The notes: a model not told the origin generated them from the letters alone. A DNA stretch of 64,000 bases from Candidatus Omnitrophota bacterium (GCA_024231025.1 JAAEQW010000139.1:7851-71850), one strand, 5' to 3'; positions 30,001 to 64,000 are shown, numbered from the stretch's first letter. Translations and numbers: made by a program.

Positions 30001-33000
30001 AGCACCCATTGCTTCTTTATGGTGAGGAGTTCTTGGCAAAATCCCTTCAAAGCACAAAAAATGAGTTAGCTCTTCAGGGAAAACAGCTTCAAGTTGCCGA
30101 GGCGTTTGCGCCGCGCTCATCGCAATTGTTGAACCTTTTTTTGTAGAAGAAGTTAAATCGTTAATGAGGCCGGCCTCTTTCATCATTCTGATCGTTTCAG
30201 GTTTAATTTCTTCATTTGGCATCTCTTGGGGGAAAAGATCACTAAATGTTAATGGCTTTATCGCCTTGTGTATAAACCTTTTTAGAGTTTCTTGCGTAAA
30301 CCTTTCTGATTTTATATATGGCCAAAACTTCCTAACAAAAAATCTAATATTTTCGTCAAAAACTATTCTCTGAGCATAATAAAAACTCAATTCTGCTCCG
30401 AGATTAATGATCATTCTGAGCTGCCTTACCAAAACAGCAAACTTTATTTCCGAAATATCAGACGCAAAACTGTGCAAATTTTCGCCATCAACTTTCAAAT
30501 CTTTAAGATATCCGGCAGAAGTCACAAGGGCAGTTTCTAATTCCGCACGCTTTGTTAGGCGTTGACTGCTATCATCCTCAAACGCTCTTACGACTTGGCT
30601 ATGTGCCTTATCAAGCTCGACTAAAGAAAGAATTAGTTGAGCGATTTTATTACCTCTTTCACAACATACCTGGGAAGCACTTACATCAGGCGCTAAATTT
30701 TTTTCCGCCTGAGACGTCACGTTAGCCTTACCTTTGCGCATCGCTTCAAGTTGACGCTTCTTTCCATTTGCGTGGCGTTCTAGTCGATCCCTACCTGGTG
30801 CGGTTTCGTGCACAACCACTTGTTCAATAAATGTATCATAGCGATAATCTCTATTGGCACCAACCAAAGCTGTTCGAATTTCACTATAAGATAGGACCAA
30901 GCTCATCTCGCCGCCATTACTTTCAGCAATTGGTAAAACTCTTCCATGCTTTTTAAAAATCGCACCATTAATGATTTCAGTATCTTTAATGAGTTCTTCA
31001 ATATCATTGAAAATGTCTTCGTTGCGTCGGTCGATAAGCCATAACCTCATTTCCGCAATTGCAGGGAAGTTGTGGCTTCTAGAAAGTTCTGCTTTGAGCT
31101 CTTCTTTTAATTTACTAATTACTGGTTTTACGCTTTTACCCGTTAGCAATTTAAGTACTTCTTCAACATATAAACGCTCAAGAATGCTAAAAACGTGTTT
31201 GGTCGCGTCAACATTATATATTGCCTTATTATCCTGCCCCCAGGAGTATTCACCCGACCAAAACCATTCTGACACTTTTACTTTCTTCTTATTTTTTTCA
31301 TCGTACTCTCTTCGTTTACCCTTAGTAGGCCTTCCGGTTAAATCCACGACGAGTTTTCCGGCGTCAAATTTCCGACAAGCTTTACGACGAATTCTTCGGT
31401 TAGCTCTGCGACGAGTTTTAAGGTGAATTCTACGGCGAGCTTTCCGACAAGCTTTACTGCGAGATTGTCGCTGAATTATACTAGATTCTATAGTAACCGC
31501 GGGTTCTACGGAAACAAAAACAATATCTTCCAATTGTAAAAAAGCAAACCCTACCTTTCTGGGGTCCATCTCATCATCTAAAGACAAGAAACACTCCAAA
31601 CCGAATCCGGTTCTTTTAGCCATGTCTCTAACTGCGGCTGCCTTATTCACATCAGCCCTTAACACATCAACGCTGGTAGTACCGCCCTCAGTCACCACCA
31701 AACTAGCGTCTGAAGGACCTAGTGCTACCTTGCGGTTGATATTATTAACAATATCCTCAACAATTTCACCTAAAATTTCTCTCGCTGATTTTTCATTGAG
31801 TATTTTCTTGCTAGGATATATTCGCGTAAAAGTATATCCAACAATTGCTCCTGCGGAATCTTTTCTTGTATCAATCAACGGCCAATCATCCGGCAACGCA
31901 GATAAAGGATCGGCTGCGTCACACGATAATTGCTTTGTTAAATTTTTTACATTTTTCGGCTCTATATTCGAACCATGTAAAACTTTGTATAAATCACCAA
32001 TAATTTTAGGTAGGTTTTCTTCTATTCTTTCTGACACCCTCACCTCTTTGTAGTGCTTATTAAACCAATCCCTGTGCGCTTTACTTGAACTACCACTTAA
32101 AGAGTGTTTAATTTTCCCAATGAGATCACCGTGCTCATCTTCATTATCTAATAGCGATCTATTTTTTGCGATTGTGATTATAATTGTTTCCCAAATCCCG
32201 CAAATACGTTTTAACGAGCTTTGCAATAAATGTTCTTGGTCGTCATTAAACCCTTTGGTATAGCGGGTGTCATCCTTAAAACCTCTGCCGGCCTCGTCAA
32301 TAACCCTTCTGACTCCACCGCTATAAGCATAAATGCTGAAACGCTCAAAAAGACAATCAACAATAAATTCAGTTAAAGAACGACCCTGCTGACGGTCAGG
32401 TTGATTACCGGAAATAACCGCATAATGAAGACCCCACAAAAGAAACCTATTTTTATACTCAACAATCTTAAAATCTTCCGGATCATTACGCAAAGCGGTA
32501 GTTAAATCCATATCCGTGGCAATCACTCCTCGGTTGATACGCTTGATCCCTCTCAATACTTTTTTATCAATTACTAGTTTTCCGTAACTATCAAATTCTA
32601 TTCCTTCAAGCGGCTCAGTAGTGTCTTGCAGACGGAACTTATAGCCTGAGTCATAAACAACTAGTTCTGCCTTTTTGCGAACTAAAATATCTAATAGGCT
32701 TCTTCCTTCGATAGTTTGAGCTTGGGGCCCTAGTTTCTCGATTAACGCTAGGAATTGACGGCAGACTAAAACAGTTAACATGCTTTTACCTTCGATCAAA
32801 CTTGGACCATAACCATTTTGCTTTATTTGCCGGGAGAACTCTTCATCCTCAATATTATTTCTCGAATGAAGCGCTATAAGATTTTGCCAAACAATTACCG
32901 CTAAAGCCTTTCGTTCTAATTGATCTAATTTTTTTCTAGGCTCTTGAAACCGACGCTCCACAAGCTTAGAGTCTGTTAATTCGATACCGGCAAAATTATC

Positions 33001-36000
33001 GCCTTCAGTTTGCCAGGTTTGCCTTTGGTTAGCTATCATTTTGGCAGTTCTAAGCATTGCTTCAAATTGCAAATAAGAAAAATTAAAATCTTCAGCAGGA
33101 TTACGCTCTATATATTCAAACTTCTTTTCTAAAGCATCATAAATTCTTCTTCTTAACTGTTCAATGTTGCTGAGACTACTAAGCAATTGCAACGGAGTGC
33201 TGGAATAATCGTTAGGATTATTTTTAATATCCTCAATGAAATCTCCTAACAACACTCTAGAGGACTGTCTGTTTTCTCGAATTTCTTGCGAATTAAGAAG
33301 ATAAATATAAACGCGAACATATTCCCAATTATAATCTTCACTCGAATAACAATGAAAAATGCCCTTTTCATCATAATGAGGCTCTCCGTTAAAACTATTT
33401 TTGCCAATTTTTTGGTTTCCTTTGCTTAAAACACCCAAATGATGTAGCCGATTTTCATCAACCGGAGAAAGTTCGATTCTTTCTCGAAGCAAACGGCAAG
33501 CCGCTTCTTTGTAATTCTCAATTTTAGGTTTTCCTTGATTGTCTTTTTCGCAACGAAGATGACCCGTCGCAGAAAGATCCTTTCTTCCATGATCCCGCAC
33601 TGGAATTATGACCTCGCCAGTTTGCCAATCTAAAGCTAATACCGCAACAACACCATGGCAGCATAAACCTTCCGATGATAATTTGTGCCCATCTATCCAG
33701 CTACTTGGCTTTGGATCATTACTATATGAAACATTTCGGTCAATATTTCCATTTGCTTGATTAACCCTAACAAGATCGTGCCTGCGTTCATACATCAGAC
33801 CAGTATTACCTTCTCCAATAGCAATTACTGTCTTATTGATTTGCGATACTAAATTATCCAGCTGGTCTTTTGATCCTTTAGGAGCTCTCTCGATAATATC
33901 ATAAGGCAGCTTTTTGTATTCTTCATAGTAGTAAATCAAGGCATTAATAAAAATCGGCCAAGCCGAAAGAGCACTGCCTTCATCATCATCCAATAAATCA
34001 CCCTCAATTAAACGCTTGCGCCCTTCTTGATATTTCGCCTTAACACTTTGATAAAGAGTTCTAATTCGCACACGGGGGGCTCTTAATAACTCTAATTGCG
34101 CTTGTTTTCCGTCTTTACACTTGGCGCAAGACTCATGCGTCTCGACCTGCTCAATCACAAACTCCGCATCAGAAGGCGATAAAAGGTTTTCAATCCCACT
34201 TGGGCTAGTTTGCCAAGCAATTGTGTAGTCATTTTCTGCTTCTACTCTTTTTGCGATTGACCGACCGTTGGTCTCCCGCTCTAGTTGTTCAACTAAATTA
34301 GCTAATCTGATTATTTGGTCGGCAATATCGGCATTGTCTGAATTATTAGCCCAACTGCGAATTTCACTGCTCTTGGGGAAGTTGTGGCCGCGGTCTTCTA
34401 CCATGCCAAAAACATACGCTGCAAGTTTATTCTCATGTTGAGAAACAGCTTTTTTTGCTTTTACTAATTCACGCATCAGGTCAAACTGAGCTTCAATCCC
34501 ATTTTCATGACGCTCTTGACCATTTTCACCTGGCGCTAATTCATGGATTTCTACTTGTTTAATAAAAAATCTATACCGATGAGCTCTTTTAGCTTTAGTT
34601 AATGCTTCTTCCATATCCTTAACGGATAACGCCCAATTTAAACCCCAACATATGTCGTCGCCACTCCACCGCGCAATCGGCAAGTGCTTCTCATATCTTC
34701 TAAAAATCTCACCATCAATAATTTTAACATCCTCAATAAGCTCTCTTAGCTGCTCAACAATATCCGCGTTCTTCGCACACCACCCTGAATCATTAAGATA
34801 TTTTTCTAGATCCAAGGCTGTAGGGAAGTTGTGGGAAGATCCACGCCTTAGCGTCTTAGCCACTAGCTGATAGACTTCTTTCCATTTTGACTTGCGCGAA
34901 TGATCGCGCAAATTCATTACTCGCGAAATCACACCTAAAGCTACACCAAAACAACCAACTAATATTACTATAAAATCCTTCGTATTCTCTGCATAATCCA
35001 TGCTCAACTGCCATTGGGCGAGACGGTAAATGCTTACGGAGAAGGTAGCTGCAAGAATATAATGTCTAAACTTAGAAACAGATCCATTAAGCATCCTAAT
35101 AAGCATTATAGAATTCATAATTACAAGTGCAATTAGCGCATTGTCTCTCGTGAAAAGTGAAGACAGGATATTATTTATTGAGACAGTTTGCGCAGTTGCT
35201 GAGGCAACTAAAGTGCTAGTGCTTGCTTCTGCTGAGCTGCAACCAAAAAGAAACGCTGCTAAACCACCAAAGAATAAGATCACGCTAGACCCTAACCAAT
35301 GTCTTCTAAACGCTGGTGTCGTGCGGGTGTTAACATCAACAAAGTTATATATTGCAAACACCATCGCTGCTGAAACAAGCGCTACCAACCCACATTCTTG
35401 AATGAAAGATGAAGGCAACAGCCTATCCCCTACTGTTGCAAGCCACCCCGCGGCTTCCTGCGCCCGGGCGGAGATGCTGGCTAGGGTAAAAATTGCAAAG
35501 GATAATAAGATTGAATAAGTTTTATTACCGCTATTTGCACCGATTTTCAGTATAGATAAGACAACCATACCCAAGCCAGCAAAAATTGCAGCAGGCAACT
35601 CACCTGTGAGAACATCCACAGCCAAAACGGTGCCAATAAATAGGGTTATTCTTTTCAATAATCCTAAAATTATATTGCGAGGGGTTACAGACAGCGCCTG
35701 TTTTACCAGCCTTTCCCACTCAGGCAAAGGCACAAGCCCAATATCATTATTCGTTGTTATGTAGGTAAGGTGAGTTTCTAATAAATCGTTATTATTTAAG
35801 TCTCTTATGGTTAAATTGCATACTTCTTCTTCGGATAGGTTAGGATCGCGTAAATGATAGAATTCGTGGAAGCGGAAAATAATACGTAGTTGCTCCGGCG
35901 GTGCACGTAGAGTAAGTGGATTAATATATAGTCGGCCGTCAATTATTGCTGGTGCACCAAGCGATGGTGAGATGAGTATATCATTATTGGTAAATTCTAT

Positions 36001-39000
36001 CCCCTGACTCTTTAGATAATCACGCCCGCCAAAAGCAGTATAGATAATTTTGAGTTCGTCATCCGTTGCATTACGATCAGGAAGATTTTCGGTTGGCATG
36101 GTGGCGGGAAAGTTATGGCTGCCTTTTTCCTTGGTCAACTGCCCAGCCACTAATTGATAGACTTCTTTCCATACATTAAAATACTGACCACTTTGTGCGG
36201 CATAAGAGATTATAAAAGACCAAATAACAAACACACCGCTTTGCATAAGGAAAATATGTTTAGGAAAATATACAAAAGCAATTAAGTTAATTATCCCCCA
36301 AATCGGAAGAATAGTAATAACAAGTGTTGTTGGGATCTTTAAAAAACGCCTCCATCCAGAAACTGAAGAATTAATAAAAGGTTCCTTGCCACTTTCTTCT
36401 AACGACTTTCCTTCAACCAAAAATTTATTCAGAAAAACATCAAACCAAAAACTACCGCTAAGGCCCCAAAGTACTAAGTCAATAGCCCACATAATAAGAG
36501 CGGGATGATTACCAACCAAATTAGAGGTGAGGTTAGCGTAATAGGGCAAAGCCATACCAAGCCAAGCCATTCCCCAAATCGGACCAAATATAAAAATCGC
36601 GGCCAAAGCCACGCGCAATAGTTTGCCCGGAATAAGTTTTGCCTGTTTATTTTTTATGTTTATAGCAGTAAGCTGGGCAAAATAGTTTCCCAAAACCCGT
36701 GAAGAAACAGCAACCACTATAATCCGAGAGATACTATTTACATAACTAAATTCAGCGCTTGCAGTCCCAAACCAAAATAAGCTGATCAACGCACCATGCA
36801 CCAAAGAAACTGCTAAAACCACCTGTTTCGGATATTTTGTGAAAATCCGATTAATCTTACCTTGAATAGCTTCCAGCCTAGAAGTGCCGCCTCTTGCGTC
36901 TTCAGTCAACTCCGCTCGATATGCTTGGTGCTCACTTGCTCCGCTATTACTATTCGCACCACGCGCTGTGTCTTTTACAGAAAGAGCATCTGTAATCTCT
37001 TCAATACTTGCAGCAGGATCTTGCGGATTAAACTGCACCACCTTCATTCCTGCTTTACGCGCACCATCGATGTTAACCTCAAGATCGTCAACAAACAAAC
37101 ATTGATCAGGGGTAAACGAAACTGAATCAAGCACCGCCTGATACATCAACGGATCTGGTTTACGTGCACCAATATTCTGAGAAGCAAAAATATCGCACTC
37201 GGCTATTTCTAAAGAACGAAACGTCGGGATAATCCTACGGTAAAACATCGGATTGTTATCAGTTAAAATCCTAATTGCATAACTTCTCTGCTTTAAATCT
37301 TTAATCAAAGTTGATATTTCCGGAATAAGATCGCCACAAAGATTATCGTTAATAACCTCAAACCCTGCTTTGCTTACTCTACTCCCTGAGACACCTCTTT
37401 GCTCAAACCACTTCTTAGTGGCCTCAACTAACTCTTCGTCTGTCGCAATTTGCCCTCTATCAAACTTATAAAACGGATTGTTCACATCATCAATCCTTCC
37501 GCTCCAATACTGCCCTGCTACTTCTGGCGAACATCCAAATTGTTTACTAATGTCATCAACCACCTCTTCTTCGTTGTGACGGACAATCACATTTCCCACA
37601 TCAAAAATAACGCATTTGACCACACTATTTATATCTTTTATCACTCTTGTTTTTTTGCCCTCGGATATACTTTCTACACTATATTGAGCAATCTTGGTAG
37701 TAAGACTATCAAAATGCTCATCCAGCTCATTAACACCTGGCAGAAGACTGAACATATGGTGGAAGTGCTTGCTGTTGACACTAGCTCCAGCCCACAAACT
37801 TTGGTATATAATTGCTCCATTTGTTCGGTAGGCTAAATCAACGAATGCGAAAGCGTCTTTAGCTTCGAAATATTGTCTTTCTCTCTGGGCTAATACAAAT
37901 GTTGCGTAGTAATCCTCAGATGGCTTAGCATTGGGAATAATGTGCCAGCGAGATTTTTGTTCAATAAAACCATCTAAGTCCATGACTGCTAAGGCTTCTA
38001 TTATTTCCTGCTTGAGAACAACAAATCTATCATTATCTAAAGTTACCTCCGCAATTGCTGCACGAATTTGGTCTTGACTATAGCGATGGAAATCTTCTTC
38101 TGAGAAAGAAAATCTCCTCATCACCTCATGCGCCCCCACACTCCGTCCGTCAAGAATATCTGATTCACCTTTTTCTCTTGGAACTACAATAAGTGAATCC
38201 TTGCGGCCCAAAAGATCAAAAGGGATATCTTTGCTCTGAAGAACATCGATTATTGTATAAAATATCAGTGCGCTAACTTTTTGATCAAGCCCTTTTACCA
38301 CAAAACCATTCGGTTCTTTTAATTGTGCTAAATCAACTGTAACTGGCCTAACTCTTGCATCCAATCTTTTAATTTCGCCAAGTTTTAACCCATAGCTAAT
38401 TGCGTTATCTGCAGTTACAACATCGGCAAAGAAAAACTTTGGCTCCTGCTTAAGCTTAATCTCGGAAAGATCGAGCCACTCTGCTTTTTTCAATTTGCTT
38501 CCTCCGGGCCATATACCACATAAAAAAGGACCCTTCCACTCTAAAATCTTCAGCTTTTCTCGGGCCTTGCTAGAAATAGCAAAACCGATTTTTTTCTTCC
38601 ACAATCTCTCCCAACGAGTTTTTATTTCGGATGCTAAATCATGGGTGGCCCAGCTATTTATGCCCTGCTCTAAGATGCTGAGCAGCCTAAAGATGGTCTT
38701 TGCATAATTGTACTCGCTCTTTTTAACCGCCGCCAAAGCAGCATCATTTAATAATTGAGACAGCTTTTCAGCCAAATCAGCAGGTTCTTGAGTTTGCCAA
38801 TTCTCCACAACATAATCAGCTTCTAATCTATACGGATAACTAAATTTTGCTGCACGTCGCCGAATTCTCGACCACCGACGCACACTAGATAAAACTGAAT
38901 CACCGTTTTCTAAGCCCCGGTTAATATATCGCAACAACCTTATGTCGGATGGTGCTCGAAAATACACCTTCAATGTTTTACGATTCAAGCTAGCAATTAT

Positions 39001-42000
39001 TTCTCTGACTTGATTACCGAACGCATAAATAGAATCCAGTAATAAAATATCAGAAGATGTTAGATGCAATTGCGATAGAGCCTCTTTTACCCGATACCAA
39101 TCAATCGCATCAGGATGATTAATATCTGGATTGCCCTTACCTGTCAACGGCCATTCTTCCTTGGGTTTCAAATATCGATTAACTTGAAAATGCTTAAACC
39201 TTTCGAGCTCAGAAGCTTTTCTTGCCCATTTGCTCTTTCCCGAACACTTTTCTCCCGCAACCAAAACAATACAACCTTCCTGGCCATCCATTAAAGTTTC
39301 CCTTAAGCTATTTAATGAATGTAAAACCGCTCTAGAGTAAGCTAATTCCACAGCCTCATTCTCTTGATGGGTTCGGCCATTCAACTCATGTACAAACACC
39401 GCAGTAAGATTATATTTAGGATTATTGAAGGCTGGTTGTTCAATATATAGGGCATTATTGGGTTGGTCATAATAGGCAGCAAAAGTAATTTGTTTACTCG
39501 TAATAACTATTACTTTAGGCGGACCACGTTTTGGATCAACTCTATCTTCTCTTTCTAGAAAGCTTATTGCCTTTTCCCGTGCTGGATTAATTAACTTATT
39601 TTCTTCTGCGATTGGCGCGCGAAATTCAACACTTCCGGTACGGTATTTATCCAACTGCGTTTGGGTTTGAGCCAAAGTATAGCCATTGTATCCGCCGTCT
39701 TTTGAGGAAACAGGATCATTACCATCCTTAGACCTATACTTAATTGCACCGCTTAGCTTGGCATAAAATGCCTCGATAGTTTCTTGCACAACAGCGTCTA
39801 ATTGCCCCTCTCTATTCGCAACGACAATAAAATCTCTTTCTTTGTAGTGCGCTAAATCTTTTGCGTCTCTCCTTGCGTTTACCTCGATCGCCCGAACGAT
39901 ATTTTCCTCGCTAACCGATTCACCTAACTGCGTTAGAGCCCAAATGGCTCTATCTCGAGACTGCGCACGAATGAGAAAAGAAAACCTTGCCTCAGGATGC
40001 TTATTTCGTCCCACCACAATAACCGGAGAAGAAAGAGACATTTCCTTAATTTGATCCTTCATACGGCTTGCCAATTTAGTCGCAACGGCTCTGTTGCTCC
40101 TCCAAGCAACATTAGCTGCACTAGTGATTTCTGGCTGCTCAATATCTTCGGTTACGTCTACTCCGTCAACAAACACTCTTTCTTGCACCATAGTAAAAGT
40201 TGTATTATTAATTAGTCTCAGCATTCCTGATCTGTCTGTTAAGCTAACCCCTTCGTTGAAAGCCTTATGGGTTATCGCCCGATATATCTTACCACGGTCA
40301 AAAACCTGACCGCTAATGCGTGCAGCAAACGCCCAAGCAATAGCAGATTTACCAGTATTACTCTTTCCGCAAACCGAAACAATTATGCCACGACTGCTCT
40401 TAGCACTATGTAAAGGCATATTGAACTGCTCAGGAGTAATCTTCCCCTCTAAAGTGCTAATCAATCCACAAACAACTTGTGCATATCTGTATTTACTTTT
40501 TTTAATCACCCTATCAGCTGTTTTACGCATCAGAGACATTAACTTATCGCTTAAAGAAACAATTTCTTCTGGCTGCCAGTTCTCCACCATATAATCAACG
40601 TATGATTTATAAGGCTCAATAAATTCGACTGCACGCCGCTCAATTCTTGGCCAAGCACGCACGTTAAAAAGTACAGAATCGCCCATCTTCACACCTCGGG
40701 CAATCCGCCGTAGTAATCTAATCGCTAAAGGCGCCTGAAAATAAACCTTAACAACCTCACGCTCTAGTCCGCAAGCTATCTCACCTGTCTCCTTACCAAG
40801 GGCATGCAAAGAATCTAACAATAGTATGTCACTGGTTCCAAGTTGTAGCATTTTTCCTGAACGCCTTGTTGTTCTATTGTTTACCTTGTCATAATTTGCC
40901 ATTTCTACAAAACCATTCTTAGATAACGCCTCTAAGTCTTCCTTCAACCATTCCCAGTTAATCGCACGAGGATGATCAGCATCTGGGTTACCGCTACCAT
41001 CTATAGGGCGATCTTCCTGGCATTTAAAATATCGATCGACAGGAAAATGCACAAATTCATTACGTCCATCAAGACTCCTTGCCCAGGTAGTTTTCCCTGA
41101 ACAGCTGCTTCCGGCAACTAAAACAATGGCGCCCTTATGGTCAACAGCTAAAGAATTCGCCAAGCTCTGCTGTGAATGCATTACTGGGTTATGTGGCGGT
41201 CTGATTTCGTGCAACCGCCCAATGAATGACTCTCTATTTTTCAAAAAGAGCTCTCGGAACGAAACAAGGTCATAAGAACCAAACAACTTTAAAAATGCAG
41301 CTCTTAGCTCTTGGGGAGTATACCCATCCGTAGGATTAGTGTCGATTCCGGCTAATTGTGTAGTATGATCATATAGCCTTTGATCGAAAAACTCTATCAT
41401 TGCCGGGATTATATCTTCTAGCTGCCGACCCTTTGAAATCACTACATCCTTGCGCGCATGTCTTACAATTGTTGTTCGAATATCACCATCAACCACCAAG
41501 ATCTCTCCGTCATCTTCGCTAACACCAAAACTCGCTAATGATCCAGGGTAACGATTCGGGTACATATCCGATCCTAGCACAACAACCGAACCCTGCCTTG
41601 CCTGTCTATCAACAGAATCGTTATATCCTGCCTCAAAGCTACTACTTAAATCAATTATTTTAGCGTCAATAATTCTTGCTAACTCATCAGCGATCGCTAG
41701 CTTTGCATTTTGTGAAGAACCGTAAATAGACACTATGATTCCTGTATCTAAAATGTTTTCTACGGCAGCAACTCCCAATCTAGTCATTTGTTCAATCGGT
41801 AGTTTTCGCCGTAAGGCACTAACCAATCTCGAAGCTAACCCTAAAGACTGCCGATCTCTTTTGGGATCCATTTTAGAAATCGCATCCTCTAGCAAAAGTC
41901 TAGCCGGCTCAGACCATTTAGATAATTCATCCTCACTCCAATTCTTTATTAAATAATCTGCAATATCCTTGCCTGGTTCAATAAACTCTGCGGCGCGATG

Positions 42001-45000
42001 CTCAGCCACAAAGAACTGGCTTAAAACAATCTGCGGCTTCATTGAGCGCTCTTGCGCATTTCTAACTACTTTTCTAAAAAACTTAATTTCCGAAGGAAGA
42101 TCAAGATAAACCTTAACGACTCTGCGCTTTAACTTAGAAAGTAAATCAACTAGCCTCCGATCAAAGGCATGAATTGAATCAATAACCAAAATGTCATTGG
42201 AACCCAATCGCACTTTTTGTCCTGTGCGTCGCTTCTTAAAGCTTGCAAAATCTACCTCGCCAGTCTCAATCAACGCAGTTACATCCGTACAAAACCATTC
42301 CCAATTAAAAGCATCAGGGTGTTCATGGTCTAACAAACCATCCCACCTCTTAGGGTGTTTAAAATAACTATGAAAATATTTATCCCCAATGAAACGCTTT
42401 ATCGTTGGTACCGAAGCACACCATGTTTTTACACACCTACTCTTACCTGCCGCACTAGAACCAACCAACAATACAACCGTTCCTGCTGGTTGCCCTGCAA
42501 TAGCCTTCGTTAACTGACTAATACTAGAAAACCGATGATCATCTCCAAAGGTCTGCCTAGCCAGGCTTGCCTCAAAGCATGCCTTCTTGGCTGTAAGCAG
42601 TTTTGACTGCTTTTTGCTTAATTTACCATCTTTAACCTCAGCTTTAGGGAATTTCCAATGTTCCCTTGAAAAAGCTTCACATGGTGTAATATTAGATTGC
42701 TCAGAATATTTATTGCTTAACTCCTTTATTCTGCTAAACATCTCACTGTAAAGTTCTACCAATAACGCTGAATCCGACGATAAACTTGTTGCGCTCTTGC
42801 GGAAACTTGCAATTCCCTGCAACGCTGCTATCGTAACTGGGTACATTGCTTCAGACAATAGTCTATCCGTACCCTTGCTAAGCTCTTCCTGTGTTCTTTG
42901 CCACTGACCATTCCAAAAATCTATAATCACCGTTTCCTCATAAGGTCGAAACAATATTCGTAACTCTCTTATTCTTTGGGAAATCTCAATCTCTCCTTTT
43001 AATGCTGAATTAGCTAACTGCCCAATAAAAACCATATATCCACTGGCATCGACAAAAGAGGCAATGTTTGGCCGAAGATATTCATGCACAAACAAATCGG
43101 TAACAATACCATCAACCGAACCGCAATTGATCATTTCCGGAAAAGCATAACTACCCTTATCTTTTATATCAATCAGTAAGCGAGCAATTTCACCGATCAA
43201 CTCTTGGGAAGCTGGCACATTAACATATGATTTAATTTGCATAAGCAATAATCGCAGAAGTTGTAAGTACTCCCCATAATCAGGGTGATTACTGTTTGCT
43301 GCCAGGGCACGGTCTGCTAGACGGATCTTTTCACTATCAAAAGTAATCGTTTCAAGCTGATGTGGACCAACCTCTTGATAAGCAAGTATTGGCTCCATCT
43401 CCTGCCAATCTTCAGGGATTTGAGACCAAGAAGATCCGGCAATAAAAGCATCCGCCGGAAATCTACTGCCATCATAAAAAGGCACAAAAGCAAAAGGCAT
43501 TTGAGAATCAAAGGCTTGATGGACTATTTTAGCCGGAATAACAACTCCACCAGTCTTTACCCAATCTTCGATAAACATAACCCCGCTTCCTTTAATCTCC
43601 TGACCAGTCCTGGTATAAGATAAAAGTTTTCGTAATAAAGGTAAGGTTGAATATTCAACCGGATTGTGTGCAAAATAAGCATTAGCTTTTTGTTCTGCGA
43701 TATCGGCAATCCTCCTTGCTTCCTTAATAGCCCTAATAACATTTATTTCTCCGCCTTCAACATCATTGAGGGCATCCTCTATCTTTTTATTCGGTAAATC
43801 TAGTTCTGGATAATTCAAGCATAAATCGTAAACACGATTAAGCCAGGTAAGCACTTCTTCTCTAAGTGTTGCATCAGCTATACCATTTTGCATTCTTCGC
43901 TTAACGGTTTGAATACTACAACCCCCTGTATCTCTAGCAGGAGAGGCAATTAATTGAGTGATTTCAAAGAAACGTCGGTCAATTCTACCATGCTCAACTA
44001 ATAATCTGACCGCTTCTTCTACACTGATACCAACTAAATCAGATAACTCAATGTCTAGCTCCCCTAATTCTTGTAGGCTGACCGATGAAGTAATATCGCC
44101 TGCCATGTCTTCGGTAACCATAATTGCCCGATCTTCTTGAGTAAGAATTTCATTTAATGCCGGAGCAATCGATGTGAATCTACCCAACTTAACATGAGCA
44201 ATATCCTTCTCTTTCGGCAAATACATTCCTAATTTTTCCTCAATCGTTTGCTTCAACTCACTTTCACGTAAAAACTCCAAAGCTTTGATGATTTTACTAT
44301 TTCTGGAAACAACAACTAACTTGTGACTCCTGCGCATTCTCAATAAAGAAATAATATAAAGCGGCAACTCCTGAGGTGTAACATATAATCCCCAGGCGCC
44401 TTTTTTAATAGCCTTATCAAGGGAAAAATCAGGATTTTTCATCTTATCTCTTATAAGATAATCTATGTAGCGAACTATTCTTTCTTGATTAGGAAAGGTG
44501 GATAAAGCTGTCCGACGGAAAGCAACTACTTCTTCTTCGCCTAACTTAAAAACTACCTGCAATCGAGTAAACGCAGCCTTAAGGCGTCTGTCAAGATCTT
44601 CAAATACCCTAACAAGAGGAACCTGCACTCGATCTTTAGCGATGTCTCTACTGTCTTTGGCTTCGGTGTTAACCTCAATCAACTCACCCTTACTATTAAA
44701 TCTCAATGATCTCCCCTCAGGGTCAAGAAAAATACTTTTCTTAAGCAATACTGCTGTCTTTGCCATGCCTAAGCCTTTTACTGAGTAGGCACCCGCAGCA
44801 GTGAGTATTGTTCGATCGTGCCCATTTGGCTGATCGCCAGCAATGAAAATATTCTCTTCCTCAGCTTCAACACCGCGAATTGCAGTTAACTGTTCTTGGA
44901 AATTAATTAATCCTTTTCTTTTAGCAGAACAAGTTATGTCTAAACGCCTAGATCTCGTCATGCGATCTCCTCGATGAACAAGAAAGTCAATAGTTATTCC

Positions 45001-48000
45001 CGGAAAGCCTTGGCTTATCAAACGCTGCCGAATAACATCTCGTAAATATTTAACATAGCTACGATTGTGCTCGCGACTTTCTGGTTTTACTATCCAGCGG
45101 TATGGCTTCTTATGAACTATTTTAAGCTCTAATCTTTTTGTAATCTTCAATAAAGCATTTTTTTCAGAAGCAGAAAATTCACTTCGACCATACAGCTTTC
45201 GCCCGCTGGCAGTAACTCCTTCGTTAGAATTATCCGGATAGATAAACATATTGTCGGCAGCGGCAGAATATGCATCACTTCCCATTATATGCTTCATTGG
45301 TTCAAGAAGAACATGCTTAGCTCCTTCAATCGGCCTAGCTGTATTGAACGATAATAATATTCCATGGTTTGCCAACTCTACCAAAAATCCTAGAATTTCA
45401 TGTGAAGGATAAAGAGTGCCGTCAATATCGCAATGCAAGGCAATTTTAGGTTTTGATAAAGCATCATGGGTATAGTTTATCTTCATAAATTCTTCAGTGA
45501 ACACCTCTATATCTCTAGTAAACAACTCTCCGCAAAAGCGTAAACCGTAAATGTCTATCATTCGTCGAAGCATCGCTTTAAAATCTTCGTGGTCAACATG
45601 TTTAATGCTATGAAGGAAAAATTGAAAAGTGTAAGGTTGATATTTCCGCGCAATGCTCACACAGTCACTACCCAAAAGTTGAATGGTGCTGCCTATATTT
45701 AAAACCGTATCCATCCTAATGCCATCAAAAGAAGTCGAAATATGTCCATTACAAAATTTTACCGTTTTCCGCCAACACGATTGCTCTCTATTGCTAACCT
45801 TCTTGGTAGGATCCAAATTGGCAACATGACGCACGAAAGAAGTAAAGGCATTTCGACCATTATCAGCGACTGTGAGCACCTCCACATCATTGTTAACCGC
45901 TGCCACAACCTTTACCTCCTTGCTCTCGCTCTGGGCATAGTCTGAAACTGCATTTATTATCATTAGCTCTCTTAAAAAAGCTCCCAATTGTTTAGCTGGA
46001 CTCGAATGAAAAAGTTGTCCCTTCTTTTTATTGTAATCTATGCGATGGCCAAGATTATGAGCACCAAAAGGATTATGAGGAGTGAAAATCTGTGCAGCCA
46101 TAAGTCTCAGAAAATCACGAAGTTCTTTGTCTCCTTTCAACTGCGGCGGCTCCGTTCCCATCTTCTCATACCAACCTCTTACTTTATCCAAAGTAAGTGC
46201 GGAATTCCTCCAATCAACTGAAGGCACTATTCCAACTCGACTACGAATTGCACGCCGCCTTCCACCTAACAAAGATGGTATTTTCCACCAATTATCATTA
46301 GATCTAATTAGTTCTTGAGGATCAAGATGCATAGCCGAAGCTACCCTAGTTTTATGATCAGCAGCAAAACACTCTACCTGAGGTCCTTTGTTGTTGTCGC
46401 ATCTTCGAAACACTTTATCACCGATTACACCATATTCACCGAAAAACCTAACTAGGCTAGCCAAATAATACACGATTGAACCAGCCGCCCAACTATCAAT
46501 AAATCTTATCTTAGAATGTGAGAAAATACCCGACTCTTTCAACTCCTCATAAAACTCTACCGCCCTCTTTTGAAAACTAATTTGACTAGTCATTAAAACA
46601 ATAAAATCACGATAGATTGACTCTCTAAATGCATCCTTGTTTTTAGCACGATGATGTTTTCGAATTATCTTCCTTATGTCATGGTATATAAAATCCATCT
46701 TGGCCCTGCTCAAATAATAAATCATTGAATCATTAGGAAAAATATCTAATTGATCCATCAAATACGCGGCAGTAAAATCTCGTCCACAATCTCTTGCCAG
46801 AAATACATTTATTTGGTTAGGATCAACTATCTGCTCAACAACATAAGGCGCCACACCAAACATCCCGATCAATGCCCTAGCTAAATTATCATTAGGATCA
46901 GAAAGCATCTTCACGAAAGAGTTTGCCGTAAGATTTAAAAGAACACTATCTAATTTTCCTAAGGGTTGGGATAAATCAATTTCCTTTGCCAGAGAACCGG
47001 CCTCGCGAACTACCTCACTTATTAACGCTTGTCGATTGCGAAATGAAAAAGACGCTTGCGGATAATAAAATTTGTCTACTCTGGAATCGCTGATTGGACG
47101 AGCATAAAATTCACTTTGAATATCGCTTTTAACGCCATGAAACTCTCGTAATAAACCAGCCTCAAATATTGCTCTCTGAGCTTCAATAGCAGTTAAAGAT
47201 ATTGAATCAATATTTTTATCTATACCTGGGGCAAATTTCAAATGGGCCTTATTTCGTGTTCGACACGGTAAAATATTAAACATCTCGTCATAATTCTGAG
47301 CTAATACCCCTATTGCCCCCATCATCTCGCCATAAGCCACTTTTAATCTCTCCGATTCAGTTGAAGAATCCGCTGCTAAATTACGAAACTCAACGATTGC
47401 TTCAATAGTTTTAATTGTAAACTCGGACATATTAATCTCCGTTAACCTACTAGCTCCTAGATTAATCTCTTTCGTCGTTTTTTGCCACTCATCTCGCCAA
47501 AAATTCACAATCGCCAGTTCTTCTTCGGCTCGGAATGATCCTCTCAACTTAATTAATTCTTGAGAAATCTTAATCTTATCGGTTAACACCAAGTTAACCA
47601 ATTTCTCGATAAAAGCTGTATAGCTAATAACATCTTTAAAGAAAGACACATTGGGTCGTAGATACTCTTTGATAAAACGAGCACTAATAAATCCATCTTT
47701 AATTTTTGCCCCAATTATCATTTGCCCATCATCACAGCTGCCCTCTTCCTTAACATCAATTAAAAAACGAATAATCTCAACCAAAACATCTTGCGCAACC
47801 ATCACATCAACTAAAGAGTTAATCTGCAATAAAACACTATAAATAAGCTCTAAATACTTATAGTAATCAAAGTAATTATCTAGGGCAACAACGTTCTTTG
47901 CGAGATATTTTTCTTGATTTTCGATGGTAATTTCCTCTAACTGATCTTTTTCAACTTCACGATAGGCAATAATTGGTTCCCAATCCTGCCAATCTTCTGG

Positions 48001-63984: not shown

Positions 63985-63990
63985 TTTTCG

Positions 63991-63996
63991 CTCCTT
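63991..63996 (-). promoter_or_regulatory. Shine-Dalgarno-like AAGGAG, 6 nt upstream of the candidate ATG start at 63984.
   Basis: Reverse complement of ctcctt at 63991-63996. The spacing to the ATG is canonical. However, the upstream in-frame codons still align with the repeat unit found at the starts of modules 2 and 3, so the ORF may continue 5' beyond the window. Confidence 0.45.
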
Positions 63997-64000
63997 AGGG

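What the first reader, a model, noticed from the sequence alone, without database searches (positions are those of the whole stretch)
38780..42560. Cluster of four kinase P-loop domains (three Udk-like and one Cmk-like) within 3.8 kb of one ORF
The Udk-like domains at 42560-42000, 41200-40650 and 39330-38780, and the Cmk-like domain at 40420-39800, all keep GxxxxGK(S/T). The Udk-like copies keep DHPxA and hhhhDS motifs. The Cmk-like domain aligns through its lid region. Nearby at 41800-41460 there is also a SLOG-like segment. The Udk-like domains are clear paralogues that have diverged in sequence, which argues for sub-functionalisation and against redundant dead copies.
Basis: partly seen in the sequence, partly recalled or inferred. 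Interest (0 to 1): 0.75.

Follow-up and report, generated by a model that had tools for sequence, protein, structure and literature searches.

The report
Nucleotide-kinase domain cluster inside giant gene
The four kinase-like domains are real, but they are one small part of a single reading frame that fills the whole 64-kb window, most likely a giant multi-enzyme protein of an Omnitrophota bacterium built by repeated internal duplication; some of the kinase copies look active and others look dead.

Summary
Walker-A motifs lie at aa 7180, 7630, 7878 and 8249 of the minus-strand frame, with a fifth at aa 4380. HMMs call four domains uridine-kinase-like and one cytidylate-kinase-like.

The "one ORF" is far larger than stated: the whole window is one stop-free frame of 21,333 codons, open at both ends. 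Its only long relatives (24-49% identity) are fragments of very large proteins; every one that carries a source name is from a Candidatus Omnitrophota MAG. One of them has the pilZ/ABC-transporter/glycosidase context published for Omnitrophota giant genes.

The first ~9,000 aa are a mosaic of diverged segmental repeats. The repeated unit here is a Udk-like + Cmk-like di-domain:
- U2-Cmk is the best preserved.
- In U0-X0 and U1-X1 the second kinase has decayed (GSSQNAKL).
- U3 has lost the catalytic Asp, which is kept in 90 of 90 relatives, and also the nucleoside-binding hairpin.

dN/dS between copies is 0.2-0.4, but dS is saturated for the kinase pairs.

Best reading: a nucleoside-to-NMP-to-NDP phosphorylation relay with pseudo-kinase copies. 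The substrates are unproven. This is a new member of a known kind.

A repeated 130-aa zincin-fold module lies between Cmk and U3.

The parts
1..63999 (-). One continuous open reading frame of 21,333 codons that runs off both ends of the window. In this report aa i corresponds to window bases 63999-3(i-1) down to 63999-3i+1.
   Evidence: 0 stops in this frame, against 779-2,498 in the other five; no other ORF longer than 234 aa.
41818..42507 (-). U1, a Udk-like P-loop kinase domain (aa 7165-7394). Walker A is GSSAAGKS. Catalytic Asp is kept (IGDKYF). Motifs EHPDA and ILVIDS. Lid reads RKVVRN..R.
   Evidence: Pfam PF00485 44.3 bits. NCBIfam udk E = 1.6e-20. Residue table.
41194..41790 (-). It is a degenerate P-loop remnant (GIIVSIYGSSQNAKLAIA) in the position that the Cmk-like domain occupies after U2.
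   Evidence: No Pfam or NCBIfam hit. BLASTP against the Cmk-like N-terminus gives E = 3e-5. hhalign against the Cmk family gives probability 77.5%, E = 1.9e-5, over 37 columns. One HSP joins aa 7163-7480 to aa 7613-7935. The AF2 model is unusable, pLDDT 44.5.
40450..41157 (-). U2, a Udk-like kinase domain (aa 7615-7850). Walker A is GSSCSGKT. Motifs PVDRYF, DHPRA and ILLLDS. The lid is derived (RRIARGVKMGD).
   Evidence: PF00485 36.7 bits. udk E = 5.3e-22. PDB 3W8R/3ASY uridine kinase E = 1.6e-8, aligned over residues 7-187.
39745..40392 (-). Cmk-like NMP-kinase domain (aa 7870-8085). Walker A is GKSNTGKS. The DRGKIYR motif and the lid RRDAKD are kept. GRD has become GRN, with the MGT loop deleted.
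   Evidence: PF02224 74.2 bits. TIGR00017 72.8 bits, below the 135.55 cut-off. PDB 3AKC E = 7.5e-8. Residue table.
39325..39747 (-). D module (aa 8085-8225). A conserved ~130-aa domain with a zincin metallopeptidase-like fold and a non-canonical HELNGxTHxEN motif. Paralogues lie at window 49201-49623 and 61768-62196.
38656..39300 (-). U3, a degenerate Udk-like domain (aa 8234-8448). Walker A is intact (GEKCSGKS). The catalytic Asp is Asn (QVNRY), about 25 residues of the nucleoside-binding hairpin are deleted, and the lid reads RYINRG..N.
   Evidence: 50% identical to U2. PF00485 13.1 bits, below cut-off. udk E = 7.9e-13 in two stretches. Residue comparisons.
37720..38655 (-). B module (aa 8449-8760), function unknown. 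It has a paralogue at aa 3602-3939. A Udk-like domain followed by a B module also occurs in the Omnitrophota relative P0008.
   Evidence: 42% identity, E = 9e-84; matches in P0008 at 4769-5063. No Pfam hit.
37036..37620 (-). HAD-IA hydrolase domain (aa 8794-8988). Motif I reads FDVGNV, so the second Asp is missing.
   Evidence: PF00702 E = 8.8e-14 and PF13419. NCBIfam HAD-IA, with weak hits to pyrimidine 5'-nucleotidases. Sequence.
50230..50907 (-). U0, the fifth Udk-like domain (aa 4365-4590), outside the finding's range. Walker A is GCNAAGKS. Motifs PGDRYV, AHPDA and ILVVDS.
   Evidence: udk E = 5e-9. PF00485 16.8 bits, below cut-off. U0+X0 matches U1+X1 at 57% identity, E = 1e-126 to 4e-151.
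49600..50202 (-). X0 (aa 4600-4800), the paralogue of X1. About 100 codons are ~93% identical to X1 at the nucleotide level, which marks a gene-conversion patch.
   Evidence: nucleotide identity 0.89-0.94 in the patch, against about 0.55 in the flanks; dN/dS 0.32-0.40 at dS 0.16-0.19.
51499..51690 (-). N-terminal part of a PHP phosphoesterase domain (aa 4104-4167), with the DLHLHT motif intact.
   Evidence: PF02811 E = 6.5e-10. The best NCBIfam match is 3',5'-nucleoside bisphosphate phosphatase at 7.6e-22, below its cut-off.
42544..44199 (-). A module (aa 6601-7152), a ~550-aa unit of unknown function that ends directly before U1. There are five paralogues in the window, at aa 2-596, 1826-2370, 3032-3598, 5080-5622 and 6601-7152.
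   Evidence: 38-47% identity, E down to 1e-174. Alignment A3. No Pfam or PDB match.
34918..36822 (-). First cluster of hydrophobic, predicted transmembrane segments (aa 9060-9694). The ~9,060 aa before it, which hold all the kinase domains, have none.
   Evidence: Kyte-Doolittle scan with a 19-aa window: threshold 1.8, threshold 1.45.
13678..14190 (-). GGDEF diguanylate cyclase domain (aa 16604-16774) in the same ORF, with the GGDEF motif intact at aa 16685.
   Evidence: PF00990 E = 2.2e-35, 122 bits. Motif.

Best explanation
The cluster is a stretch of one very large membrane-anchored multi-enzyme protein. At least 21,333 aa of it lie in the window, and both ends lie outside. It is of the kind described for Candidatus Omnitrophota.

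The N-terminal ~9,000 aa of the window's part were assembled by repeated segmental duplication and reshuffling of modules. One of these modules is a di-domain: a uridine-kinase-like P-loop kinase followed by a cytidylate-kinase-like NMP kinase.

Inferred mechanism: the di-domain works as a two-step phosphorylation relay. The first kinase uses its catalytic Asp to phosphorylate the 5'-OH of a nucleoside-like acceptor. The second kinase carries the monophosphate on to the diphosphate. Relatives add NDK, guanylate kinase and PEP-utilising domains in the same polypeptide, which could complete the route to the triphosphate. The likely setting is the ATP-containing (cytoplasmic) side of the membrane.

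After duplication the copies diverged unequally:
- U2-Cmk keeps both kinases.
- U0-X0 and U1-X1 keep the first kinase and have lost the second.
- U3 has lost the catalytic Asp and the acceptor-binding hairpin. It is most likely a pseudo-kinase that can at most bind nucleotide.

Shown: the domain identities, the paralogy, the residue losses, the module mosaic, and the relationship to Omnitrophota giant-protein fragments.

Inferred: catalytic activity, the nature of the acceptors, the relay, and the sidedness.
For: **A giant ORF.**

**Domain calls.**

**Residue-level conservation, checked against verified references.** The UCK2 reference is identical to PDB 6PWZ and the E. coli CMK reference to PDB 1KDO.
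- U0-U2 keep K33, S/T34, D62, an acidic residue at position 135, and R165/R166/R169.
- These positions are near-invariant in 90 related domains.
- The Cmk-like domain keeps K18, R41, R131, R181 and D185.

**The di-domain as the duplication unit.**
- A single HSP joins aa 7163-7480 to aa 7613-7935. It spans the kinase, the linker and the second P-loop.
- X against Cmk: E = 3e-5 by BLASTP and E = 1.9e-5 by hhalign.
- The same Udk-then-Cmk order occurs in the Omnitrophota protein P0003, again as a single HSP (giant 7624-8018 to P0003 1246-1605, E = 1e-32).
- Cmk adjacent to Udk-like also occurs in P0043, P0062 and P0045.

**Pathway partners in relatives.** P0001 has Cmk + 2 Udk-like + NDK + PEP-utilizers_C. 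P0062 has guanylate kinase.

**Omnitrophota origin.** All 10 long relatives that carry a source name are Candidatus Omnitrophota MAG proteins. P0008 is followed by PilZ, a solute-binding protein, two permeases and a GH2. That matches the downstream context described in bioRxiv 10.1101/2023.11.21.568195.

**Constraint.** dN/dS is 0.18-0.40.

**Location.** There are no hydrophobic segments in the ~9,060 aa that hold the kinases. A polytopic region follows.
Against: - No activity data exist.
- Both domain types score far below the NCBIfam equivalog cut-offs: udk 36-78 bits against 180-220, and cmk 73 bits against 135.55.
- The positions that recognise the base or ribose in the reference enzymes are mostly changed. 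For UCK2 these are D84, Y112, H117 and R176. For CMK they are S36, R110, D132 and R188. The acceptors may therefore not be uridine/cytidine and CMP.
- U2, the partner of the only intact Cmk-like domain, has a derived lid: D170 is Gly and R174 is Met, both rare in relatives.
- A HAD hydrolase and a PHP phosphoesterase sit in the same soluble stretch. If they were nucleotidases they would oppose the kinases.
- Sidedness cannot be settled. The N-terminus is outside the window and the crude TM count is uncertain.
- No glycosyltransferase, NDK or other pathway partner was detected in the window itself.
- The taxon is inferred only from relatives at 24-49% identity. The window holds no marker gene.
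Confidence: 0.55

Rival explanations
1. The domains are active kinases, but they do not act on pyrimidine nucleosides or nucleotides. They would phosphorylate other acceptors, such as sugars, sugar-nucleotide intermediates or cell-wall precursors, in support of the glycan chemistry that dominates Omnitrophota giant proteins.
For: - The acceptor-binding residues of UCK2 and E. coli CMK are largely replaced.
- Scores are far below the equivalog cut-offs.
- PF00485 also covers phosphoribulokinase, and U1 hits a PRK subfamily model at 8.8e-9.
- Relatives combine these kinases with ROK sugar kinase, PGI, fucose pyrophosphorylase, GT1/GT4/GT20, APH and NAGPA domains.
Against: - The best HMM and PDB matches are consistently uridine kinase and CMP kinase rather than PRK.
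- The ribose-binding Asp84 is Asp or Glu in 88 of 90 related domains, and in U1 and U2.
- Other fusion partners act on nucleotides: NDK, guanylate kinase, an HD 5'-deoxynucleotidase-like domain and a 2H phosphoesterase.
Confidence: 0.2
2. Most or all of the copies are non-catalytic. They would serve as nucleotide-binding, regulatory or purely structural modules (pseudo-kinases) within a scaffold protein.
For: - U3 lacks the catalytic Asp and the hairpin.
- X0 and X1 have a broken Walker A.
- U2 and U3 have derived lids.
- U0 has Ala at the Asp84 position.
- U0 and U3 fall below the Pfam cut-off.
- Even the degenerate X patch evolves under constraint, with dN/dS of 0.32-0.40. This shows that non-catalytic copies are retained.
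Against: - U0, U1 and U2 keep every residue of the phosphoryl-transfer core, and those residues are invariant in 90 relatives.
- The Cmk-like domain keeps its P-loop, R41, R131 and the lid residues R181 and D185.
Confidence: 0.15
3. The giant product is a polyprotein. The zincin-fold D modules between the enzyme domains would cut it, so that the kinases act as separate small enzymes.
For: - The D module has a confident zincin-like fold.
- It recurs at least three times in the window.
- In relatives it sits between enzyme domains, for example directly before NDK in P0004.
- Cleavage of Omnitrophota giant proteins has been proposed on the basis of other peptidase domains (bioRxiv 10.1101/2023.11.21.568195).
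Against: - No cleavage sites are known.
- This reading is compatible with the best explanation rather than exclusive of it.
Confidence: 0.07
4. The ORF is an assembly or annotation artefact, or a decaying pseudogene, and the domains have no function.
For: - No close relative exists in any collection searched.
- Most of the 21,333 aa have no recognisable domain.
Against: - Zero stop codons in 21,333 codons, while the other frames carry 779-2,498.
- Several in-frame domains have significant HMM matches.
- dN/dS is well below 1.
- Homologous modules occur in independent Omnitrophota assemblies.
Confidence: 0.03

Closest known systems
Large and giant multi-enzyme proteins of Candidatus Omnitrophota. 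These are the 'Archaeovorins' of West-Roberts et al. 2023 (bioRxiv 10.1101/2023.11.21.568195) and the 'multi-enzyme metabolic cluster' class of bioRxiv 10.64898/2026.06.07.730766.
   Same: - A single ORF of more than 10,000 aa.
- Clusters of TM segments separated by long soluble stretches.
- GGDEF, HAD and P-loop domains.
- Internal repetition of domains.
- Sequence relatives only among Omnitrophota MAG proteins.
- One relative has the published downstream context of pilZ, solute-binding protein, permeases and glycosidase.

   Different: - None of the domains used to define Archaeovorins was detected in the window's 21,333 aa. These are glycosyltransferases, methyltransferases, glycosyl hydrolases, peptidases and NUDIX.
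- The main text of neither preprint mentions uridine-kinase or cytidylate-kinase domains.
- The best relatives are only 24-49% identical.
Uridine-cytidine kinase: human UCK2 (PDB 1UJ2/6PWZ), T. thermophilus Udk (PDB 3ASY), and the Udk family (TIGR00235, PF00485).
   Same: - P-loop kinase fold signature.
- Walker A.
- Catalytic Asp in the DxY motif.
- HPxA motif.
- Acidic Walker-B residue.
- Arg-rich lid.

The alignment covers almost the full length of the family model.
   Different: - The domains are embedded as repeats in a giant protein.
- The Walker-B motif is 'DS' rather than 'EG'.
- The base-binding positions Y112, H117 and R176 are not conserved.
- Scores are less than half the equivalog cut-off.
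- U3 lacks the catalytic Asp and the hairpin.
Bacterial (d)CMP kinase: E. coli Cmk (PDB 1KDO), and the family models TIGR00017 and PF02224. This includes its known fusions, such as PanC-Cmk, AroA-Cmk and Cmk-Der.
   Same: - Full-length match to the family model.
- P-loop.
- DxGxxYR motif.
- GR of the GRD motif.
- Lid motif RDxxD.

Cmk is already known as a fusion partner in bifunctional proteins.
   Different: - S36 is Arg, R110 is Ala, D132 is Asn (with the following MGT loop deleted) and R188 is His.
- The same loop deletion is shared with five relatives: P0008, P0009 and P0024 (named Omnitrophota MAG proteins) and P0006 and P0010 (origin not looked up). It therefore looks like a trait of this subfamily.
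- The score is below the equivalog cut-off.
- I did not find a Udk-Cmk di-domain described in the two Omnitrophota giant-protein preprints searched.
Minigluzincins and other minimal zincin metallopeptidases: selecase (PDB 4QHF), projannalysin (4JIX) and proabylysin (4JIU). This comparison concerns the D module.
   Different: - The motif is HExxGxxH...E instead of HExxH.
- Sequence identity is only 15-22%.
- There is no Pfam or PDB sequence match.
- The module is an internal repeat of giant proteins, not a free-standing protein.

Membership tests
Uridine kinase / PRK family (Pfam PF00485) | Score at or above the Pfam gathering threshold (22 bits) | tested here: met
   U1 scores 44.3 bits and U2 36.7 bits. 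U0 (16.8) and U3 (13.1) are below the threshold. They qualify only through paralogy with U1 and U2 (43% and 50% identity) and through NCBIfam udk E-values of 5e-9 and 8e-13.
Uridine kinase equivalog (NCBIfam TIGR00235 / NF004018) | Score at or above the curated equivalog cut-off (220.3 / 180 bits) | tested here: not met
   The best scores are 36.1 (U0), 73.5 (U1), 78.5 (U2) and 48.5 (U3) bits. These are Udk-like domains, not Udk equivalogs.
Uridine-cytidine kinase (UCK2 numbering) | Phosphoryl-transfer core: Walker-A Lys33 and Ser/Thr34, catalytic Asp62, an acidic residue at position 135, and lid residues Arg165/166/169 | tested here: met
   Met for U0, U1 and U2 (the reference sequence was verified). 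Not met for U3, which has D62N and R166Y, whereas D62 is Asp in 90 of 90 relatives.
Uridine-cytidine kinase (UCK2 numbering) | Nucleoside-recognition residues: Asp84, Tyr112, His117 and Arg176 | tested here: not met
   Position 84 is Ala, Glu, Asp and Asn in U0-U3. Position 112 is Phe, Phe, Tyr and deleted. Position 117 is not His in any copy. Position 176 is Met, Met, Asp and Asp. The assignment of residue roles comes from my own knowledge of the UCK2 structure papers.
Uridine-cytidine kinase | ATP-dependent phosphorylation of uridine or cytidine | not testable with these tools
   Needs an enzyme assay.
(d)CMP kinase (Pfam PF02224) | Score at or above the gathering threshold (26 bits), with a full-length match | tested here: met
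   74.2 bits, covering profile positions 2-177 of 211. TIGR00017 aligns over positions 3-216 of 217.
(d)CMP kinase equivalog (NCBIfam TIGR00017) | Score at or above the curated cut-off (135.55 bits) | tested here: not met
   72.8 bits.
(d)CMP kinase (E. coli numbering) | Phosphate-binding and lid residues: Lys18, Arg41, Arg131, Arg181 and Asp185 | tested here: met
   All are kept (the reference was verified).
(d)CMP kinase (E. coli numbering) | CMP-specific residues Ser36, Arg110, Asp132 and Arg188, which are near-invariant in the canonical short relatives | tested here: not met
   They are Arg, Ala, Asn (plus the loop deletion) and His respectively. D132 is Asp in all 13 canonical sequences listed there. 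The roles of these residues come from my own knowledge.
SLOG / LOG (Lysine_decarbox) superfamily, for the segment at window 41460-41800 | A detectable match to a SLOG/LOG family model | tested here: not met
   X0 and X1 have no Pfam family at E <= 1 and no NCBIfam family at E <= 0.01. The only detectable similarity is to the P-loop start of the Cmk-like domain.
SLOG / LOG superfamily | A SLOG-type Rossmann-like fold | tested here: inconclusive
   The AF2 model of X1, built from a two-sequence alignment, has a mean pLDDT of 44.5. No fold search was attempted.
Omnitrophota large/giant proteins (West-Roberts et al. 2023) | Length: 'large' is >= 10,000 aa and 'giant' is >= 30,000 aa | tested here: met
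   At least 21,333 aa are open in the window, so 'large' is met. 'Giant' cannot be tested, because the ORF runs off both ends.
Omnitrophota large/giant proteins | Encoded by an Omnitrophota genome | tested here: inconclusive
   The window holds no marker gene. All 10 long relatives that carry a source name are Candidatus Omnitrophota MAG proteins, but they are only 24-49% identical. Scans of GTDB genomes found nothing.
Archaeovorin subtype | Consistent presence of glycosyltransferases, methyltransferases, glycosyl hydrolases, peptidases and NUDIX domains (definition quoted) | tested here: not met
   None was detected in the window's 21,333 aa. The test covers only part of the protein. Relatives do carry GT, methyltransferase and related domains.
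Omnitrophota giant genes | Downstream pilZ, then solute-binding protein, ABC permeases and glycosyl hydrolase | not testable with these tools
   The 3' end of the gene is outside the window. This context is present after the relative P0008.
Zincin metallopeptidases, for the D module | Zincin catalytic-domain fold | tested here: met
   [not shown]
Zincin metallopeptidases, for the D module | HExxH zinc-binding motif | tested here: not met
   The conserved motif is H120-E121-x-N123-G124-x-x-H127-x-x-N130...E134. Position i+4 is Gly.

The most novel reading that the evidence does not exclude
The kinase cluster is part of a self-processing polyprotein 'nucleotide factory'. The repeated zincin-fold D modules, with their unusual HExxGxxH motif, would cut the giant translation product between enzyme domains. 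This would release, or locally organise, a nucleoside-to-NTP salvage line made of Udk-like, Cmk-like and, in relatives, NDK and Gmk domains. A predatory or epibiotic Omnitrophota cell would use this line to capture nucleosides from its prey. The dead kinase copies (U3, X0, X1) would serve as substrate-holding or assembly subunits.
Probability: 0.1. Interest if true: 0.75.

Novelty: new member of a known kind. Interest (0 to 1): 0.45.

Why it matters
Omnitrophota giant genes are among the largest known in any organism, and their function is essentially unknown.

This window gives a concrete and testable picture of how one of them is built. Modules are duplicated, shuffled and partly homogenised by gene conversion. 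After that, some enzyme copies are kept intact and others are turned into pseudo-enzymes.

The Udk-like + Cmk-like di-domain recurs across divergent Omnitrophota proteins, often alongside NDK, guanylate kinase and sugar-nucleotide enzymes. This suggests that nucleotide phosphorylation is a built-in service function of these proteins, and small recombinant domains would be enough to test that.

The zincin-fold D module gives a specific candidate for the proposed, but so far unsupported, proteolytic processing of giant proteins.

Tried and rejected
1. **Close relatives.**
   - The word-indexed search of 5.8 billion proteins with the 1,350-aa cluster found nothing at E <= 1e-3.
   - Scans of GTDB genomes, JGI metagenomes and IMG/VR with the U2-Cmk peptide found nothing.
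   - Scans with the D-module alignment failed or found nothing.
   - Only the exhaustive HMMER search found relatives, none above about 50% identity.

2. **SLOG reading of aa 7400-7513.**
   - No HMM support.
   - The AF2 model of X1 was too poor to use, pLDDT 44.5.
   - The reading is rejected in favour of a degenerate P-loop remnant. Even that rests on only 37-65 aligned residues.

   - It is computable only with NG86. dS is 1.5-2.3, which is saturated, and YN00 fails.
   - The values of 0.24-0.34 argue against neutrality but are not precise.

4. **Relative-rate test for faster evolution of U3.** It is significant with U0 as outgroup (24 against 10 unique changes, p = 0.016) but not with U1, so it is inconclusive.

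5. **A single origin for all four Udk-like copies in this lineage.**
   - NJ bootstrap support is only 55.5%.
   - The pairs U0+U1 and U2+U3 are at 99-99.5%.

6. **Function of the A, B and F modules.** No Pfam or PDB sequence match.

7. **Membrane sidedness from TM parity.** The crude hydropathy counts change with the threshold, so I draw no conclusion.

8. **The profile search with Udk-like domains.** It returned only single-domain ~300-aa 'nucleoside kinase' proteins, for example from Clostridia, and added nothing on giant proteins.

9. **Other features.** Rfam, tRNA and tandem-repeat scans of the window showed nothing relevant. The afdb50 fold library was unavailable.

Full report
**1. What is in the sequence**

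The finding speaks of "one ORF", but the frame is far larger than the finding suggests. The minus-strand frame whose first codon ends at window base 63999 has no stop codon in 21,333 codons and runs off both ends of the window. The other five frames carry 779 to 2,498 stops. No other ORF exceeds 234 aa. I number residues along this frame, so aa i covers window bases 63999-3(i-1) down to 63999-3i+1.

A search for [GA]xxxxGK[ST] finds exactly five sites: aa 4380, 7180, 7630, 7878 and 8249. From the amino-acid composition I estimate about 1.2 such motifs by chance, so the motif count alone is weak. The profile matches are strong.

- Pfam PF00485 (PRK/uridine kinase) gives 44.3 bits for U1 and 36.7 bits for U2, against a cut-off of 22.
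- PF02224 (cytidylate kinase) gives 74.2 bits for the Cmk-like domain, against a cut-off of 26.
- U0 (16.8 bits) and U3 (13.1 bits) fall below the Pfam cut-off.
- All four Udk-like domains match NCBIfam's udk model, with E = 5e-9, 1.6e-20, 5.3e-22 and 7.9e-13.
- Against PDB sequences, U2 matches T. thermophilus uridine kinase (E = 1.6e-8, residues 7-187). The Cmk-like domain matches T. thermophilus CMP kinase (E = 7.5e-8).

**2. Residue-level check**

I used human UCK2 and E. coli CMK as references. I first verified that the sequences I recalled are identical to PDB 6PWZ_A and 1KDO_A. The assignment of roles to residues comes from my own knowledge of the published structures.

In UCK2 numbering:

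| Position (role) | U0 | U1 | U2 | U3 |
|---|---|---|---|---|
| K33, S/T34 (Walker A) | kept | kept | kept | kept |
| D62 (catalytic Asp) | Asp | Asp | Asp | Asn (QVNRY) |
| E135 (Walker B) | Asp | Asp | Asp | Asp |
| R165/R166/R169 (lid) | RRR | RKR | RRR | RYR |
| R174 (lid) | Arg | Arg | Met | Asn |
| D84 (ribose binding) | Ala | Glu | Asp | Asn |

The Asp at position 135 is the "hhhhDS" motif. U3 also lacks about 25 residues that correspond to the UCK2 hairpin carrying Y112 and H117.

In 90 related Udk-like domains collected from the exhaustive search:
- K33 and D62 are invariant (90/90).
- D84 is Asp or Glu in 88.
- R165, R166, R169 and R174 are Arg in 82-87.

U3's changes are therefore exceptional. 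The shared motif is HPxA.

In E. coli CMK numbering, the Cmk-like domain keeps K18, R41, R131, R181 and D185. It has S36R, R110A, D132N with the following MGT loop deleted, and R188H. D132 is invariant in the 13 canonical CMP kinases in the same alignment. The loop deletion is shared with the Cmk-like domains of five relatives: P0008, P0009 and P0024 (named Omnitrophota MAG proteins) and P0006 and P0010 (origin not looked up).

Both domain types score far below NCBIfam's equivalog cut-offs. They are Udk-like and Cmk-like, not demonstrable Udk and Cmk.

**3. The "SLOG-like" segment**

Residues 7400-7513 (X1) and their paralogue X0 (aa 4600-4800) have no Pfam match at E <= 1 and no NCBIfam match at E <= 0.01. 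They begin GIIVSIYGSSQNAKLAIA, which aligns with GIIVSVCGKSNTGKSAIA of the Cmk-like domain.

- BLASTP gives E = 3e-5 over 65 residues.
- hhalign against a Cmk-family alignment gives probability 77.5% and E = 1.9e-5 over 37 columns.
- A single BLASTP HSP joins aa 7163-7480 (U1, linker, start of X1) to aa 7613-7935 (U2, linker, start of Cmk).

X is thus best read as the decayed second kinase of a duplicated Udk-like + Cmk-like di-domain. It has a broken Walker A, no R41 and no lid. An AF2 model of X1 was unusable (pLDDT 44.5), so a SLOG fold is not formally excluded, but nothing supports it.

**4. How the region is built**

A self-comparison of the protein in 600-aa pieces shows that the first ~9,000 aa of the window's part are a mosaic of diverged repeats.

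- A ~550-aa A module occurs five times. The last copy ends at aa 7152, directly before U1.
- E-type modules occur at least five times.
- A ~130-aa D module lies at aa 602-744, 4793-4933 and 8085-8225 (70-76% identical), with weaker copies elsewhere.
- A B module occurs twice: aa 3602-3939 and aa 8416-8754.
- U0+X0 (aa 4356-4796) matches U1+X1 (aa 7156-7598) at 57% identity.

The order after the last A module is U1, X1, U2, Cmk, D, U3, B, HAD. The first cluster of hydrophobic segments follows at aa 9060-9694.

In a neighbour-joining tree with 200 bootstraps, U0+U1 and U2+U3 pair at 99.5% and 99%. The monophyly of all four gets only 55.5%.

Within X0/X1, about 100 codons are 89-94% identical at the nucleotide level, synonymous sites included. 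The flanks are about 55% identical. This is the signature of recent gene conversion inside the gene.

**5. Selection**

NG86 dN/dS values:

| Comparison | dN/dS | dS |
|---|---|---|
| U0-U1 | 0.32 | 1.5 |
| U2-U3 | 0.24 | 1.9 |
| U0-U2 and U1-U2 | 0.30-0.34 | 2.2-2.3 |

These dS values are saturated and YN00 fails, so the numbers are rough.

For the younger repeats, where dS is usable, the D modules give 0.18-0.39 (dS 0.4-0.75). The converted X patch gives 0.32-0.40 (dS 0.16-0.19).

Nothing approaches 1, and the 64-kb frame is intact, so neutral decay is excluded. A relative-rate test suggests that U3 has changed faster than U2 when U0 is the outgroup (24 against 10, p = 0.016) but not when U1 is.

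**6. Where it comes from**

No close relative exists. The word-indexed protein search and the scans of GTDB genomes, metagenome contigs and viral contigs all returned nothing.

The exhaustive HMMER search of 1.84 billion representatives with aa 7171-8370 found 2,379 proteins at E <= 1e-3, but only two at E <= 1e-30. None was above about 50% identity.

The long hits (1,200-7,250 aa, many without a start Met) share several modules with the window's protein, beyond the kinases. All ten that carry a source name are MAG proteins of Candidatus Omnitrophota.

One of them, P0008, is 5,751 aa and starts at base 8 of its contig, so it is a truncated larger gene. It is followed by a PilZ gene, a solute-binding protein, two ABC permeases and a GH2 glycosidase. 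That is the downstream context reported for Omnitrophota giant genes (bioRxiv 10.1101/2023.11.21.568195).

That preprint and a 2026 preprint (10.64898/2026.06.07.730766) describe:
- proteins of 10,000 to 147,155 aa in this phylum;
- many TM segments;
- frequent internal repetition of domains;
- GGDEF, HAD and P-loop content;
- in one protein, "a kinase / phosphotransferase cluster".

The window's ORF also carries an intact GGDEF domain (122 bits; motif), a HAD domain and a PHP domain.

The window holds none of the domains used to define the "Archaeovorin" subtype. I therefore file the ORF as an Omnitrophota-type large protein, not as an Archaeovorin. The taxon is an inference.

**7. Functional context from relatives**

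- P0001 combines Cmk, two Udk-like domains, NDK, a methyltransferase and a PEP-utilising domain.
- P0003 has PGI, ROK, a Udk-like domain followed directly by a Cmk-like domain, CofD and PHP.
- P0043 and P0062 have a canonical-scoring Cmk (175-187 bits) next to a Udk-like domain, together with GT1/GT4/GT20, APH and guanylate kinase.
- P0045 also has the two kinases adjacent.

The pairing of a Udk-like and a Cmk-like kinase is therefore a recurrent feature of these proteins. It often occurs with enzymes that make or use nucleotide sugars and with NDP/NTP-forming kinases.

**8. Best explanation and rivals**

I think the cluster is a nucleoside-to-NMP-to-NDP phosphorylation module of a membrane-anchored multi-enzyme protein, duplicated several times. 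U2-Cmk would be the intact unit, U0 and U1 active first-step kinases whose partners have decayed, and U3 a pseudo-kinase (confidence 0.55).

The identities, losses and architecture are shown. Activity, substrates and sidedness are inferred.

Rivals:
- Kinases with non-nucleoside acceptors (0.2). The changed acceptor-binding residues and the sugar-enzyme company favour this.
- Mainly non-catalytic nucleotide-binding or scaffold modules (0.15).
- An artefact or pseudogene (0.03).

**9. The D module**

The ~130-aa D module lies inside the finding's range, at window 39325-39747 between Cmk and U3. It is the best-conserved element of the cluster in other Omnitrophota proteins, at 33-49% identity. 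In P0004 it sits directly before an NDK domain. It has no Pfam or PDB sequence match.

With a 14-sequence alignment AF2 gives pLDDT 90.4.
- Foldseek's top PDB matches are the minimal metallopeptidases selecase, jannalysin and abylysin.
- The conserved motif is HExxGxxH...E, not HExxH, so activity is doubtful.

**10. Verdict**

- Right: the domains are paralogues, they have diverged, and they are not decaying neutrally.
- Wrong or untested: at least one kinase copy and both X segments have lost catalytic residues, there is no evidence for SLOG, and sub-functionalisation was not tested.

The kind of object, a giant multi-enzyme protein of Omnitrophota with internal repeats, is already described. 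The Udk-Cmk di-domain with its decayed copies and the zincin-fold D module are details I did not find in the main text of either preprint.

Noticed in passing
[not shown]
   Followed up: partly
window 49900-50200 and 41490-41790 (aa ~4600-4700 and ~7404-7504): A patch of about 300 nt inside X0 and X1 is 89-94% identical at the nucleotide level, synonymous sites included. The flanking paralogous sequence is about 55% identical. This indicates recent gene conversion between two copies 8.4 kb apart in the same gene.
   Followed up: yes
window 42544-63996 (aa 2-7152): Five copies of a ~550-aa A module (38-47% identical), at least five E-type modules of ~300-370 aa, and larger super-repeats such as aa 1548-2370 matching aa 6308-7147. 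None has a Pfam or PDB sequence match.
   Followed up: partly
window 13678-14190 (aa 16604-16774): A GGDEF diguanylate cyclase domain (122 bits) with an intact GGDEF motif at aa 16685, in the same ORF. It lies just after a group of hydrophobic segments at aa 16146-16297.
   Followed up: partly
window 37036-37620 (aa 8794-8988): A HAD-IA domain whose motif I reads FDVGNV. The second Asp of the usual DxD phosphatase motif is replaced by Gly. There are weak matches to pyrimidine 5'-nucleotidase families.
   Followed up: no
window ~19000-28000 (aa ~12,000-15,000): About 3,000 aa are rich in Glu, Lys and Leu and poor in Gly and Pro (E+K+Q+R = 0.32-0.37), which suggests a coiled coil. This explains the strong AT skew there and the long antisense ORFs on the plus strand, such as 22901-23605. 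The only Pfam hint is a weak Laminin_II match.
   Followed up: no
window 6415-6942 and 20920-21444 (aa 19019-19195 and 14186-14360): An isolated pair of 175-aa repeats, 64% identical, lies about 4,800 aa apart in the C-terminal half of the window's ORF. Each lies next to predicted TM segments.
   Followed up: no
L002 18364-18729 (ENA ERZ27247989 contig k141_4294370): Directly downstream of the relative P0001 (4,741 aa: Cmk + 2 Udk-like + NDK) lies a 121-aa gene that hits 23S_rRNA_IVP and bAvd, a family that includes accessory proteins of diversity-generating retroelements. An AAA_14/DUF4143 ATPase and three large HEAT-repeat proteins follow.
   Followed up: no
proteins P0007, P0013 and similar (747-830 aa): Among the closest non-giant relatives of U2 (30-36% identity) is a family of ~750-830-aa proteins. 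In the two members scanned (P0007 and P0013) a PQ-loop membrane domain is followed by a C-terminal Udk-like kinase. P0007 is from Elusimicrobia MAGs and was seen on 16 contigs. This looks like a transporter-kinase fusion.
   Followed up: no
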